The notes beneath the pieces are model-generated. The model made no database searches. It had not been told where the DNA came from and saw nothing but the letters and a program-made list of their open reading frames with translations. A stretch of DNA of 9,606 bases, taken from the IMG/VR virus record IMGVR_UViG_2541047901_000004, positions 1 to 9,606 of that record, one strand, 5' to 3'. The stretch is from a virus. Taxonomy: Duplodnaviria > Heunggongvirae > Uroviricota > Caudoviricetes. A program made the translations under genes and the position numbers. Shown one piece after another: positions 3,010 to 6,459 of this stretch (position 1 is the first letter of the stretch; every line of letters begins with the position of its first letter).

Positions 3010-3291
3010 ATGAAAAATAAAAATTCTGGCGTTACTGCCAGCGGCCCCGCTCGTCCTGAATTTATGAACGGCGATATTTACCGCGATAAATATGGCGGCA
3101 TGGTAACGATTAAAGGCGTGGCAGAACGGCGCATCACCTACCGCCGTGAAGGTTACGAATATGATTGCGTGATGCCTGTTTATCAATTCCGGCGTGATTT
3201 CACGCTGGTGGGCCATCGTAAAGCCGTAAATCAGAAACGTGCAGCAAGTCATATCCGCAAAATCCGTGAAATGCTGGTCGCAGGGGGGTAA
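3010..3291 (+). CDS. Hypothetical small basic protein
   Basis: 93-aa ORF with GGAGA 11 nt upstream. Stops 3 nt before the replication-gene ATG. No motif recognised. Confidence 0.55.
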   Translation: MKNKNSGVTASGPARPEFMNGDIYRDKYGGMVTIKGVAERRITYRREGYEYDCVMPVYQFRRDFTLVGHRKAVNQKRAASHIRKIREMLVAGG

Positions 3292-3294
3292 GAA

Positions 3295-5049
3295 ATGAAA
3301 CTGGCACCGAACGTAAAAAAACAGCCTCGCGGAATAAAACACGAACAAACCGAAGTGATCATTTTTGCGGGTAGTGATGCTTGGTCACACGCGAAACAGT
3401 GGCAGGAACACGACGCGCGTACAGCCGGAGATAATGAGCCTCCTGTGTGGCTTGGAGAGCAGCAGCTATCCGAACTGGATAATCTACAGATTGTACCGGA
3501 AGGCCGAACATACGCTCGTATCTACAGAGCCGGACATCTTGCGCCTGTAATGATTAAGGCGATTGGTCAGAATCTGGCTGCGGCAGGCGTACAGGATGCA
3601 AATTTTTACCCTGAGGGAATGCACGGTAAGAAGGTGGAGAACTGGCGCGAATATCTGGCCCGTGAACGCCAGAATCTTTCTGATGGGCTGGTTATTGAGC
3701 TTCCGGTAAAGCAAAAAATGCAGCTTTCGCAGATGGCGGACAGTGAGCGCGCGCAACTGCTTGTCGATCGCTTTGATAGCGTTTGTGTGCATCCGGAAAG
3801 TGAAATCATCCACGTCTGGCGCGGCGGGGTATGGTGTCCGGTCAGCACAATGGAACTGAGCCGCGAAATGGTGGCGATTTATTCAGAACATAAAGCCACT
3901 TTCAGCAAGCGCGTAATCAGTAACGCCATTGAAGCGTTAAAAGTTATTGCCGAACCAATGGGCGAGCCGTCCGGTGATTTGCTGCCGTTCGCTAATGGCG
4001 TGCTTGACCTGAAAACAGGGGAATTTTCCCCGCACTCGCCTGATAACTGGATCACCACACACAACGGCATTGAGTACACGCCGCCAGTACCAGGGGAGAA
4101 TATCCGCGACAACGCGCCAAACTTTCATAAATGGCTTGATCACGCAGCCGGAAAAGACCCGGGCAAGATGATGCGCATATGTGCCGCGCTATACATGATT
4201 ATGGCGAACCGGTACGACTGGCAGATGTTTATTGAGGCCACAGGAGACGGCGGGAGCGGCAAGAGTACATTTACGCACATAGCCAGCCTTCTGGCAGGGA
4301 AACAGAACACAGTAAGCGCTGAGATGACATCGCTTGATGATGCTGGTGGGCGTGCGCAGGTTGTCGGGAGTCGGCTTATCGTCCTGGCAGACCAGCCGAA
4401 ATATACAGGCGAAGGAACGGGCATCAAGAAAATCACGGGCGGCGACCCCGTGGAAATTAACCCGAAATATGAAAAGCGTTTTACGGCGGTAATCAGGGCG
4501 GTGGTGCTGGCAACCAATAACAATCCGATGATATTCACCGAACGGGCCGGAGGTGTGGCACGTCGTCGGGTGATATTCCGGTTCGATAACATCGTAAGCG
4601 AGGCAGAAAAAGACAGGGAGCTACCGGAAAAGATCGCGGCTGAAATCCCTGTCATTATCCGCCGCTTGCTGGCGAACTTTGCCGACCCTGAAAAGGCACG
4701 GGCTTTACTCATTGAACAGCGTGACGGTGATGAAGCACTGGCAATAAAGCAACAGACGGATCCGGTTATTGAGTTTTGCCAGTTCCTGAATTTTCTGGAG
4801 GAAGCACGCGGCCTGATGATGGGCGGCGGTGGCGATTCAGTGAAGTACACGACCAGAAACAGCCTTTACCGCGTCTATCTGGCGTTTATGGCGTACGCAG
4901 GCAGGAGCAAACCGCTAAACGTAAATGACTTTGGCAAGGCTATGAAGCCAGCTGCGAAAGTTTACGGACATGAATATATTACGCGGAAAGTTAAGGGAGT
5001 AACGCAGACTAACGCAATAACAACAGACGAGTGCGACGCGTTTTTATAA
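3295..5049 (+). CDS. Replication initiator: D5_N-like region plus SF3 (P4 alpha / D5-type) helicase with C-terminal domain
   Basis: 584 aa, GGGGGG SD 6 nt upstream. Walker A GDGGSGKST (about 4243-4269), Walker B RLIVLADQ, motif C VVLATNNNP. Upstream LPFANGVLDLKTGEFSPH resembles the D5_N region of phage/plasmid primase-helicases. The N-terminal ~230 aa could not be assigned to a primase fold by eye. Confidence 0.85.
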   Translation: MKLAPNVKKQPRGIKHEQTEVIIFAGSDAWSHAKQWQEHDARTAGDNEPPVWLGEQQLSELDNLQIVPEGRTYARIYRAGHLAPVMIKAIGQNLAAAGVQDANFYPEGMHGKKVENWREYLARERQNLSDGLVIELPVKQKMQLSQMADSERAQLLVDRFDSVCVHPESEIIHVWRGGVWCPVSTMELSREMVAIYSEHKATFSKRVISNAIEALKVIAEPMGEPSGDLLPFANGVLDLKTGEFSPHSPDNWITTHNGIEYTPPVPGENIRDNAPNFHKWLDHAAGKDPGKMMRICAALYMIMANRYDWQMFIEATGDGGSGKSTFTHIASLLAGKQNTVSAEMTSLDDAGGRAQVVGSRLIVLADQPKYTGEGTGIKKITGGDPVEINPKYEKRFTAVIRAVVLATNNNPMIFTERAGGVARRRVIFRFDNIVSEAEKDRELPEKIAAEIPVIIRRLLANFADPEKARALLIEQRDGDEALAIKQQTDPVIEFCQFLNFLEEARGLMMGGGGDSVKYTTRNSLYRVYLAFMAYAGRSKPLNVNDFGKAMKPAAKVYGHEYITRKVKGVTQTNAITTDECDAFL

Positions 5050-5063
5050 TTTTTTGTAATTGC

Positions 5064-5289
5064 TGTCTACCCTGTCTACCTGAGTAAATAAAAATACATT
5101 TAATTCAGTGCATTAAGTTAGGTAGATAGCCTTTTTTTACTGTCTACCCACTATCTCCCCTCTCTACCTGATTTTACCTGAATCAGACAGGGAGGTAGAC
5201 ACGGGGTAGATAGTGGATAAAAGCACTCTACCCCGCTGAAAGCCGCGCCATTACTGGCATGAGGGCCACTAAGGTAGATAAGGTAGACA
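5064..5289. repeat. Iteron cluster, putative origin of replication
   Basis: Octamer GGTAGAYA and its complement TGTCTACC at 5064, 5073, 5141 (TGTCTACC) and 5121, 5194, 5205, 5273, 5282 (GGTAGAYA), plus degenerate copies near 5151, 5162 and 5226. Opposite orientations flank an AT-rich core (5081-5120). Sits immediately 3' of the helicase gene. Confidence 0.65.
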
Positions 5290-5337: not shown

Positions 5338-5616
5338 ATGCACACTTCAGGGAAATTTAATAAATCACTCAAAAAACGCAGAGACAGAACAGAACCGAAA
5401 TATCGCGCGTTAGACATGACAGAGCACGCTTTAAAGGTGGCAATCAGAACGATAGACCGCCACGCGGGGGAAGGATACGCGAAAGCACATCCCGAACTGA
5501 TAAGCGCATTCATGACCACGACGGCGGCAAATTTTGCCACGCTGACAGAGCGGGAGATTGCCGAAGCGGAACAGGTAACAACCATCAACGTTAAAACCGG
5601 AGAGCAGACAGCATGA
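5338..5616 (+). CDS. Hypothetical protein, translationally coupled to the SSB-like gene
   Basis: 92-aa ORF with GAGGGGG SD. Its stop overlaps the next start in ATGA (5613-5616). No motif recognised. Confidence 0.5.
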   Translation: MHTSGKFNKSLKKRRDRTEPKYRALDMTEHALKVAIRTIDRHAGEGYAKAHPELISAFMTTTAANFATLTEREIAEAEQVTTINVKTGEQTA

Positions 5617-6035
5617 CAGCACAGATAGCGGCTTACGGGCGGCTGGTGGCTGACCCGCAGTTAAAGACCACCAGCAAAGGGACACAAATGGCGATGGCGA
5701 GTATGGCGGTTCCCCTGCCGTGCAGCCAGGCAGATGACGGAACGGCGACAATGTGGTTATCCGTTCTGGCGTTTGGTAGGCAGGCCGACGCACTGGCAAA
5801 ACACCACAAAGGCGAACTGGTGAGCGTGGCGGGTAACATGCAGGTAAGCCAGTGGACAGGCCAGAACGGCGAAATACGGCAGGGCTGGCAGGTTATCGCA
5901 GACAGTGTAATCAGTGCCAGAACGGCGCGACCAGGTGGTAAAAAAGGCCAACAGGGGCAGGCCACTGACGCACTGAACAGGGCAAAACAACAGGCGGGAA
6001 ATGATGATCCGTACGGGGATAACATACCGTTTTAA
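5613..6035 (+). CDS. ssb: Short single-stranded-DNA-binding (SSB)-like protein with conserved C-terminal IPF tip
   Basis: 140 aa. The OB-fold region aligns by eye to E. coli SSB (GRLVADPQLK...TQMAMASMAV ; WLSVLAFGRQADALAKHHKGELVSVAGNMQVSQWTGQNGEIRQGWQVIADSV). The C-terminus DDPYGDNIPF resembles the SSB tail DFDDDIPF. The Gly/Gln-rich linker is much shorter than in host SSB. Confidence 0.8.
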   Translation: MTAQIAAYGRLVADPQLKTTSKGTQMAMASMAVPLPCSQADDGTATMWLSVLAFGRQADALAKHHKGELVSVAGNMQVSQWTGQNGEIRQGWQVIADSVISARTARPGGKKGQQGQATDALNRAKQQAGNDDPYGDNIPF

Positions 6036-6051
6036 GCAACGAGTAACAGAG

Positions 6052-6073
6052 GCCGGAGCAATCCGGCTTTTTT
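6052..6073 (+). terminator. Intrinsic terminator after the replication/SSB operon
   Basis: Stem GCCGGA / TCCGGC with loop GCAA, followed by TTTTTT (6068-6073), 17 nt after the ssb stop. Confidence 0.6.
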
Positions 6074-6074
6074 A

Positions 6075-6144
6075 CGGGTCCTCCCGGTGTAGTGACCTGC
6101 CACGGGGCGGGAGCGGCGCGGAAAAAGGCTGGTTTTTGCATTTT
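6075..6144 (+). repeat. Copy 1 of a 70-bp conserved element (putative late-operon regulatory site)
   Basis: CGGGTCCTCCCGGTGTAGTGACCTGCCACGGGGCGGGAGCGGCGCGGAAAAAGGCTGGTTTTTGCATTTT. Matches 8611-8680 at 68 of 70 positions. Contains an imperfect dyad (CTCCCG ... CGGGAG). Confidence 0.8.
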
Positions 6145-6191
6145 CATGGCGGCGGCAGCATGTGTGATAATTTATTGATAATTAAAAATTA

Positions 6192-6292
6192 TTTCTGTTT
6201 TCACCTGTACAATATTTTTTTCTCCCTGTCATTAGATCAGTTTGCAATTAATTGAAATATATAAATAAATCTGTTTTTCACCTGCCAGGTGG
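6192..6292. promoter_or_regulatory. Leader region with direct repeats TCTGTTTT(T)CACCTG and a CACCTG-C-CAGGTG palindrome
   Basis: TCTGTTTTCACCTG at 6194-6207 and TCTGTTTTTCACCTG at 6270-6284. Perfect inverted repeat CACCTGcCAGGTG at 6279-6291. Extended -10-like TGTGATAAT at 6163-6171 lies upstream. Confidence 0.3.
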
Positions 6293-6357: not shown

Positions 6358-6459
6358 GTGTCTGAATCTTATTAATCTATTTTTATGATAGAAATATGTT
6401 TATCTACCACTTTTATCGATCAATAATGTGCACAGTTTAGTCAGTAAGAGGAAGTTACT

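What the first reader, a model, noticed from the sequence alone, without database searches (positions are those of the whole stretch)
5338..6035. Short SSB-like protein retaining the host-interaction IPF tip, coupled to an unknown 92-aa ORF
The 140-aa protein has an SSB-type OB fold and ends in ...DDPYGDNIPF, echoing the E. coli SSB tail (DFDDDIPF) that recruits many host repair and replication proteins, but the flexible linker is very short. On a mobile element this could be a replication accessory, or a competitor for SSB-interacting host proteins, or a trigger/decoy for immune systems that sense phage SSBs. The upstream 92-aa ORF overlaps its start (ATGA), suggesting co-function, and has no recognisable family.
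Basis: partly seen in the sequence, partly recalled or inferred. Interest (0 to 1): 0.55.

Follow-up and report, generated by a model that had tools for sequence, protein, structure and literature searches.

The report
Satellite island's own SSB gene
This is an ordinary single-stranded-DNA-binding protein gene in the replication module of a well-known type of E. coli phage satellite (PICI), preceded by a small conserved gene of unknown function. Both are already annotated or catalogued, so the finding is real but not surprising.

Summary
A 92-aa ORF (5338-5616) overlaps by ATGA a 140-aa ORF (5613-6035) that is a true SSB-family protein (Pfam PF00436, 56.5 bits against a cut-off of 26). It ends in DDPYGDNIPF, and this tip is kept in nearly all homologues, including relatives only 53-67% identical in other genera.

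The window is a ~10 kb E. coli phage-inducible chromosomal island (PICI). Its order is integrase, AlpA, P4-type primase/helicase, an iteron origin (8 GGTAGAYA copies at 5064-5289), ORF92, SSB, a terminator, then capsid and TerS-like genes. The prototype island EcCICFT073 has the same ORF-SSB pair at 70-71% identity. SSB has already been listed as a "Replication" gene of Gram-negative PICIs (PMC10111431).

The best reading is a non-essential replication accessory whose host-like tip recruits host SSB partner proteins. ORF92 belongs to a large uncharacterised family (phrog_1231, no Pfam model) and is predicted to be a helical hairpin. It is translationally coupled to the SSB in 100 of 121 non-redundant loci. 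The two are nevertheless separable and reassort, and distant ORF92 relatives do not sit next to SSBs.

I found no evidence for the decoy or competitor ideas. Novelty is low.

The parts
3295..5049 (+). P4-type primase/helicase (PICI Pri-Rep), first gene of the replication module
   Evidence: Pfam D5_N, DUF5906 and Pox_D5. TIGR01613 phage/plasmid primase P4 family, 108.9 bits against a cut-off of 108.7. RefSeq name 'DNA primase family protein'.
5064..5289 (.). Iteron cluster, the putative island origin: two opposed sets of GGTAGAYA/TRTCTACC, with an AT-rich stretch (about 5083-5140) inside the cluster
   Evidence: 8 of the 9 window matches to GGTAGAYA lie here, where 0.23 are expected for the whole window and 0 of 200 shuffles reach 9. 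Repeats are listed. The motif tracks the primase allele: 7-9 copies in 20 of 38 loci with >=85% identical primase, and 0 copies in 79 of 81 loci with other primases. It fits the published PICI origin layout of two iteron sets flanking an AT-rich region immediately 3' of the replication initiator gene (PMC6092414).
5338..5616 (+). ORF92: small conserved protein of unknown function (phrog_1231 family), with a basic disordered N-terminus and a helical hairpin
   Evidence: phrog_1231, E 1.3e-50. No Pfam, NCBIfam, PDB or PADLOC match. AlphaFold2 with a 105-sequence alignment gives pLDDT 79.9, with helices 20-43 and 52-91. dN/dS is about 0.27. GAGGGGG lies 11 nt upstream of the ATG. RefSeq 'hypothetical protein' WP_021561219.1.
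5613..5921 (+). SSB OB-fold domain (residues 1-103)
   Evidence: PF00436 covers residues 5-99. It is 26% identical to E. coli SSB. W48, F54 and W81 align with E. coli W54, F60 and W88 and are invariant in the family alignment; E. coli W40 is not conserved. GGAG at 5599-5602 precedes the ATG.
5922..6002 (+). SSB linker (residues 104-130), short and variable in length among relatives
   Evidence: Alignment A5: the proteins range from 136 to 149 aa, and the differences lie in this segment.
6003..6035 (+). SSB C-terminal tip NDDPYGDNIPF plus the stop codon
   Evidence: Conserved in homologues. P133, D136, P139 and F140 are nearly invariant in A5.
6052..6073 (+). Terminator-like hairpin (GCCGGA-GCAA-UCCGGC) followed by U6, 16 nt after the SSB stop codon
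   Evidence: Fold energy -18.9 kcal/mol, z -4.46, with 0 of 200 shuffles folding as well. The simple terminator scan did not list it.
6068..6147 (+). Copy 1 of an 80-nt repeat. It marks the boundary between the replication module and the capsid/packaging genes (context, not part of the SSB itself)
   Evidence: 95% identical to 8604-8683. Homologous to a segment between the lysis genes and terS/cos in the lambdoid phages mEp460 and phi458.

Best explanation
The 140-aa gene encodes a true bacterial-type SSB that belongs to the replication module of an E. coli phage-inducible chromosomal island (PICI). After induction it is probably co-transcribed with the island's primase/helicase. No promoter-like or terminator-like site was found between them on the + strand, and a hairpin terminator follows the SSB. 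Its proposed job is to coat the single-stranded DNA produced when the primase/helicase opens the adjacent iteron origin. Its conserved acidic ...D-x-IPF tip, the same kind as the host SSB tip, would then recruit host proteins that dock on SSB tails, such as the chi subunit of the Pol III clamp loader, so that host polymerase copies the island. It is an accessory (extra or dedicated SSB supply during runaway island and helper replication) rather than an essential initiator. ORF92 is a separate small helical-hairpin protein of a widespread uncharacterised mobile-element family. It is translationally coupled to the SSB in most E. coli islands but is not an obligate partner. Shown here: family membership, tip conservation, purifying selection, position next to the primase and origin, and modular exchange. 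Inferred: ssDNA binding, oligomerisation, host-partner recruitment, timing of expression, and any role for ORF92.
For: SSB family scores are above the curated cut-offs, and solved SSBs are matched. The aromatic residues W54, F60 and W88 of E. coli SSB are conserved. The tip is conserved down to 53% identity in other genera while the linker varies. dN/dS is 0.15. The gene order is primase, iteron cluster, ORF92, SSB, terminator. The iterons track the primase allele. The same order occurs in EcCICFT073, the experimentally studied PICI, whose origin lies right after pri-rep (PMC6092414). Mageeney et al. place the Primase, SSB and DUF5906 genes, which co-localise with mapped origins, in a 'Replication' category of Gram-negative PICIs (PMC10111431). 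The region is found in 2158 of 5426 complete E. coli genomes. Nearly identical SSB alleles sit beside primases of 38-95% identity, which fits a generic host-facing function rather than one tuned to a single primase.
Against: There are no functional data for any PICI SSB in the searched literature. As described, the EcCICFT073 rep-ori segment alone drives plasmid replication in E. coli, so host SSB suffices (PMC6092414). Some islands lack the SSB, have replaced it with a PerC-like gene, or carry decayed copies, so it is dispensable for island persistence. W40 of E. coli SSB is not conserved, and the tip has fewer acidic residues (GDNIPF against DDDIPF). Tetramer formation and binding to host partners were not tested.
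Confidence: 0.62

Rival explanations
1. ORF92 and the SSB form one two-protein functional unit. ORF92 would load, regulate or partner the SSB, or bridge it to the primase or origin.
For: The ATGA overlap occurs in 100 of 121 non-redundant loci and in EcCICFT073. Both genes are under purifying selection. ORF92 has a basic N-terminal tail and an almost invariant loop (GEGYAKxHPEL) suited to binding something.
Against: 7 loci have ORF92 without an intact SSB, and 4 have the SSB without ORF92. The SSB is just as tightly coupled to PerC-like or unrelated upstream ORFs. One SSB allele is seen with up to 9 ORF92 cores, and pairwise divergences do not co-vary (Spearman -0.12). Distant phrog_1231 members sit in prophage or island early regions, but none is adjacent to an SSB in six look-ups.
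Confidence: 0.15
2. The SSB is a takeover or interference factor. With its host-like tip and short linker it would compete with host or helper SSB for SSB-tail client proteins or for ssDNA, favouring the island over the helper phage or altering host recombination and SOS.
For: The tip is host-like and conserved. PICIs are known to interfere with helpers (PMC6092414). This SSB clade is absent from 50,697 phage records, where the best match is 31% identity, so it is island-specific rather than borrowed from a helper.
Against: There is no direct evidence. The position inside the replication module, before the terminator that precedes the packaging genes, fits replication better. The interference described for E. 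coli PICIs maps to other genes (PMC6739421 abstract).
Confidence: 0.1
3. The SSB is an interface with immunity. It would act either as a decoy that shields the island or helper from defence systems that sense phage SSBs, or as a trigger of such systems.
For: Phage SSBs are documented activators of Retron-Eco8 and DARNA (PMC13402713; bioRxiv 10.64898/2026.02.22.705581; abstracts).
Against: There are no PADLOC matches for ORF92, the SSB or their neighbours, and no defence genes in the window. The protein is only 26% identical to host SSB and at most 31% identical to known phage SSBs, so nothing links it to a known sensor.
Confidence: 0.06

Closest known systems
SSB and preceding small ORF of EcCICFT073, the prototype E. 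coli PICI (NC_004431.1, 1384284-1384948)
   Same: Same gene order: DUF4222, primase, a gap of about 290 nt holding the origin, small ORF, SSB with a 4-nt overlap, then capsid genes. The SSB is 70% identical and ends DDPYGDDIPF. The small ORF is 71% identical.
   Different: The EcCICFT073 SSB is 136 aa with a partly different linker. A PerC gene follows it. The capsid module differs: a separate major capsid and decoration protein there, against a ClpP-protease/capsid fusion here.
E. coli chromosomal SSB (178 aa; PDB 1EQQ)
   Same: An OB fold of the same Pfam family. W54, F60 and W88 equivalents are conserved. The C-terminus ends in acidic residues plus IPF.
   Different: Only 26% identity. The linker is about 27 rather than about 56 residues. 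The W40 equivalent is missing. The tip is GDNIPF, not DDDIPF. It is encoded on a satellite rather than being an essential host gene.
SSBs encoded by conjugative plasmids (for example the F leading-region ssb)
   Same: A mobile-element copy of a host-type SSB that keeps the tail and is dispensable because the host has its own SSB (general knowledge; background papers PMC9849209 and PMC11541004, listed).
   Different: Plasmid SSBs act on transferred single strands on entry to a recipient. Here the gene sits next to a primase/helicase and iteron origin of a phage satellite. Only 6 of 3329 matching places in E. coli genomes are on plasmids.
PHROG phrog_1231 (function unknown), for ORF92
   Same: ORF92 matches at E 1.3e-50. 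Distant relatives found here also match it.
   Different: Nothing is known about this family, so there is nothing to compare. Most members are not adjacent to an SSB.

Membership tests
Bacterial SSB family (PF00436 / TIGR00621) | OB-fold domain scoring above the curated family cut-offs | tested here: met
   PF00436 scores 56.5 bits against 26. TIGR00621 scores 59.6 against 53.95. 26 PDB SSB sequences match at E<=0.001.
Bacterial SSB family (PF00436 / TIGR00621) | Conserved aromatic ssDNA-stacking residues (E. coli W40, W54, F60, W88) | tested here: inconclusive
   W48, F54 and W81 align with W54, F60 and W88 and are invariant in A5. The W40 position falls in a shortened loop and is not aromatic.
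Bacterial SSB family (PF00436 / TIGR00621) | Flexible linker followed by an acidic C-terminal tip ending in PF | tested here: met
   The protein ends ...NDDPYGDNIPF. The tip is conserved across homologues and genera, and the linker is short (about 27 aa) and variable.
Bacterial SSB family (PF00436 / TIGR00621) | ssDNA binding and homo-oligomer (tetramer) formation | not testable with these tools
   This needs biochemistry or a multimer prediction.
Gram-negative phage-inducible chromosomal island (PICI) | Integrase at one end, an AlpA-type regulator, pri-rep followed by an origin of two iteron sets around an AT-rich region, size about 10 kb, and no lysis or tail genes | tested here: met
   Int, AlpA and primase by Pfam. 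Iterons at 5064-5289. The island spans about 10 kb between cspD/yljB and clpS in NZ_CP070063 and carries only capsid-fusion and TerS-like late genes. The criteria come from PMC6092414.
Gram-negative phage-inducible chromosomal island (PICI) | Induction, replication and packaging dependent on a helper phage | not testable with these tools
   This requires experiments. Indirect hint: a copy of a lambdoid cos-proximal segment lies upstream of the TerS-like gene.
Capsid-forming PICI (cf-PICI) | A full set of capsid, portal, head-tail connector and terminase genes | tested here: not met
   Only a protease/capsid fusion, a DUF1441 TerS-like gene and one small ORF follow. Host clpS comes next.
phrog_1231 (ORF92) | Significant match to the family profile | tested here: met
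   E 1.3e-50 over residues 12-91. The wider family shares the IDxxFGxGYAKxHPELIAAFMxTAAxDF core.
Known anti-phage defence or anti-defence proteins (PADLOC) | Match to a defence-system profile | tested here: not met
   No hits for ORF92, the SSB or the small neighbouring ORFs.

The most novel reading that the evidence does not exclude
The cassette is not mainly a replication aid but a host-interface module. In this reading a short-linker SSB with a host-type tip, together with the phrog_1231 hairpin protein, captures or blocks proteins that dock on SSB tails (such as RecQ, ExoI, PriA or chi), or masks ssDNA from SSB-sensing defences. That would tilt the cell towards the satellite and against the helper phage. 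It would also give the first function to a family of at least 716 sequence clusters that has no Pfam model.
Probability: 0.1. Interest if true: 0.6.

Novelty: already known. Interest (0 to 1): 0.2.

Why it matters
The finding matters little as it stands. It confirms that E. coli PICIs carry their own tail-bearing SSB beside the origin, which is already annotated in RefSeq and noted in the literature. Two modest points could be of use. First, no experiment on a PICI SSB was found, so why a satellite that can replicate with host SSB keeps a tail-bearing copy under purifying selection is open and easy to test in EcCICFT073. Second, the upstream ORF belongs to a large, strongly conserved family of small mobile-element proteins that has no Pfam model and no structural relative.

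Tried and rejected
- **ORF92 function by genomic context.** The search for related loci with the family alignment returned only close E. coli relatives. Six look-ups of distant members showed prophage or island early regions, or isolated genes. None had an adjacent SSB; one had an SSB about 5 kb away.
- **80-nt repeat.** I considered whether it is a known RNA family. Rfam gave only chance-level hits.
- **Capsid-forming PICI.** I considered this classification and rejected it because the portal and connector genes are missing.
- **Capture from a coliphage.** I considered that the SSB was recently taken from a coliphage and rejected it. No phage record exceeds 31% identity.
- **Literature.** Searches for experimental work on PICI SSBs found only a gene-category mention.

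Full report
**Observation.** The window holds a 92-aa ORF at 5338-5616 and a 140-aa ORF at 5613-6035, both on the + strand. The stop of the first overlaps the start of the second as ATGA at 5613-5616. Each has a plausible ribosome-binding site: GAGGGGG lies 11 nt before the first ATG, and GGAG at 5599-5602 precedes the second. The 140-aa protein ends ...NDDPYGDNIPF. The coordinates and the description in the finding are correct.

**The 140-aa protein is an SSB.**
- It scores 56.5 bits on Pfam PF00436 (cut-off 26), covering model positions 4-101 of 104. It scores 59.6 bits on TIGR00621 (cut-off 53.95).
- It matches 26 solved SSB sequences. The best is Thermus SSB at E 5.8e-10, and E. coli SSB scores E 7e-5.
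- A direct BLASTP against E. coli SSB gives 26% identity over the OB domain.
- In a family alignment, W48, F54 and W81 align with E. coli W54, F60 and W88 and are invariant. The W40 position lies in a shortened loop and is not conserved.
- The linker is about 27 residues against about 56 in E. coli SSB.
- No three-dimensional model was made for the SSB, because both prediction jobs went to the unknown ORF. The OB-fold call rests on profile and sequence matches.

**The tip is not a chance ending.**
- About 110 of the 120 nearest homologues end in (I/L/V)(P/S)F, mostly as DDPYGD[NGDE]IPF. The exceptions are mostly partial or fused sequences.
- In 108 non-redundant E. coli loci that carry both genes, all but two of the tails end in IPF or ISF.
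- Relatives of 53-67% identity in Leclercia, Citrobacter, Edwardsiella and Scandinavium keep an acidic tip ending in IPF or PPF, while the linker changes in length and sequence.
- dN/dS across 98 distinct coding sequences is about 0.15.

**Context.** The window is a phage-inducible chromosomal island (PICI) of the E. coli type.
- Gene order: tyrosine integrase (1-1239), AlpA (1623-1859), a DUF4222 protein (3010-3291), a P4-family primase with D5-type helicase domains (3295-5049), ORF92, the SSB, a ClpP-like prohead protease/major capsid fusion (6666-8579), and a DUF1441 TerS-like protein (8750-9322).
- A 99.8% identical copy in NZ_CP070063 lies between cspD/yljB and clpS. It is about 10 kb long, and RefSeq already names the two genes 'hypothetical protein' and 'single-stranded DNA-binding protein'.
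- The 1.2-kb region around the two genes has matches in 2158 of 5426 complete E. coli genomes.

**Origin next door.**
- The 288-nt gap between the primase and ORF92 holds 8 of the 9 window copies of GGTAGAYA, where 0.23 are expected for the whole window. They are arranged as opposed sets, with an AT-rich stretch inside the cluster.
- This is the origin layout published for E. coli PICIs: two iteron sets flanking an AT-rich region, immediately 3' of the replication initiator gene (PMC6092414).
- The motif follows the primase allele. It occurs in 7-9 copies in 20 of 38 loci with a primase at least 85% identical, and is absent in 79 of 81 loci with other primases.
- No promoter-like or terminator-like site was found on the + strand between the primase and ORF92.
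- A strong hairpin plus U6 follows the SSB stop codon (6052-6073, -18.9 kcal/mol, z -4.46).
- The simplest reading is one replication operon that ends after the SSB.

**Already-known status.**
- The prototype island EcCICFT073 has the same order: DUF4222, primase, gap, 85-aa ORF, 136-aa SSB with a 4-nt overlap, PerC, then capsid genes.
- Its SSB is 70% identical to the window's and ends DDPYGDDIPF. Its small ORF is 71% identical.
- Mageeney et al. [quoted passage not shown]
- I found no paper that tests a PICI SSB experimentally.
- As described in PMC6092414, the EcCICFT073 rep gene plus ori is enough to replicate a plasmid in E. coli. This suggests the SSB is an accessory, not a requirement.

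**ORF92.**
- It has no Pfam, NCBIfam, PDB-sequence or PADLOC match, but it is phrog_1231, function unknown.
- Close homologues are confined to Escherichia, Shigella and Citrobacter. They share a nearly invariant core (residues about 24-88) and a variable basic N-terminus.
- An exhaustive profile search found 716 50%-identity representatives at E<=0.001. Most are proteins of 60-150 aa that share IDxxFGxGYAKxHPELIAAFMxTAAxDF. These also hit phrog_1231 and no Pfam family.
- With a 105-sequence alignment, AlphaFold2 predicts a helical hairpin (helices 20-43 and 52-91). pLDDT is 87-98 over residues 21-70, and the N-terminus is disordered.
- Fold searches gave nothing informative.
- dN/dS is about 0.27.
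- My best guess is a small oligomeric accessory of the early/replication region that binds a partner through the conserved loop. This is inference only.

**Are the two genes a unit?**
- Among 121 non-redundant E. coli loci, 108 carry both genes, and 100 of those have the ATGA overlap.
- The pair is nevertheless separable. Four loci have the SSB without ORF92: two with an unrelated upstream ORF of 116 or 257 aa, and two with no upstream ORF. Both of those unrelated ORFs still end in ...VKTGEQTA and overlap the SSB start, so the exchange junction lies in the last dozen codons.
- Seven loci have ORF92 followed by a PerC-like gene, by nothing, or by decayed SSB copies.
- In Citrobacter and Scandinavium, the gene immediately upstream of the SSB is PerC-like.
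- One SSB allele is seen with up to nine ORF92 cores, and pairwise divergences of the two proteins do not co-vary (Spearman -0.12). That sample was selected by similarity and indels were handled crudely, so this is a weak test.
- Distant phrog_1231 members sit in prophage or island early regions, or alone, and none is adjacent to an SSB.
- Coupling therefore looks like operon packing in a mosaic module rather than an obligate partnership.

**Mechanism.**
- The best-supported model is a satellite-encoded accessory SSB. It would be expressed with the primase/helicase and would coat the single strands generated at the neighbouring origin. Through its host-type tip it would recruit host proteins that dock on SSB tails, for which the C-terminal domain is an established hub (general knowledge; for example PMC3000357).
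- Nearly identical SSB alleles occur beside primases of 38-95% identity. This argues that the SSB faces the host rather than a particular primase.
- This SSB clade is absent from 50,697 phage records, where the best match is 31% identity. It is rare on plasmids, with 6 of 3329 places. It is thus an island lineage.
- The competitor and decoy/trigger ideas are conceptually reasonable, since phage SSBs do activate Retron-Eco8 and DARNA. They have no support in this locus.

**Verdict.** The feature is an already annotated and published component of a known satellite family. Interest is low. The residual novelty lies in the untested function of PICI SSBs and in the uncharacterised phrog_1231 family.

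Noticed in passing
window 6068-6147 and 8604-8683: An 80-nt direct repeat, 95% identical, each copy just after its own terminator-like hairpin. It is 80-92% identical to a segment that lies between the lysis genes and terS/cos in lambdoid phages: 118 nt before the right end of mEp460, and 144 nt before terS of phi458. Copy 2, upstream of the TerS-like gene, keeps aligning with the phages for about 100 nt more. Copy 1 does not. No Rfam family matches. It may be a mimic of the helper's cos flank or a late-transcription element.
   Followed up: partly
window 5064-5289: An iteron cluster (GGTAGAYA, 8 copies in two opposed sets, with an AT-rich stretch inside the cluster) between the primase and ORF92, which is the likely island origin. 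The motif is present only in loci with a closely related primase.
   Followed up: yes
L162 and L163 5242-5514; L160 5243-5500; L161 4674-4973; L147 3142-3303: The slot after ORF92 is variable. A PerC-like gene replaces the SSB in two islands. Other islands carry decayed SSBs: an 85-aa internal deletion that still ends DDPYGDNIPF, a 99-aa truncation, and a 53-aa SSB/PerC fusion.
   Followed up: partly
L011 5654-6004; L020 5231-6004: Unrelated upstream ORFs of 116 and 257 aa still end in ...VKTGEQTA and overlap the SSB ATG. The module-exchange junction therefore lies within the last dozen or so codons of ORF92, which also carry the SSB ribosome-binding site.
   Followed up: partly
proteins P0323 and P0317: Two oddities in the phrog_1231 family. 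P0323 (149 aa) ends ...PVYPEDLPF, which resembles an SSB tip. P0317 carries an N-terminal T5orf172/MUG113 domain fused to the family core.
   Followed up: no
window 6666-8579: A ClpP-like prohead protease/major capsid fusion (NF045540, 904 bits) in an island of only about 10 kb with no portal or connector genes. Other islands with the same SSB carry a different capsid module or none.
   Followed up: no
L008 1080-1421: A Sphingomonadales metagenome-assembled genome encodes a relative 53% identical over the OB domain. It has no linker or tip, and its end overlaps a downstream 275-aa gene.
   Followed up: no
window 6169-6207 and 6246-6284; 6400-6573 (-): An AT-rich 39-nt direct repeat (72% identical) lies upstream of the ORF68/capsid genes. 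A 57-aa minus-strand ORF is annotated as a hypothetical protein in RefSeq, and the ninth GGTAGATA copy sits at its end (6401-6408).
   Followed up: no
L031, L034, L046, L081 (viral contigs of 50-57 kb): The same SSB cassette occurs inside contigs of prophage size, beside an integrase only 35-42% identical to the window's. These may be the helper-embedded PICIs described in PMC10111431.
   Followed up: no
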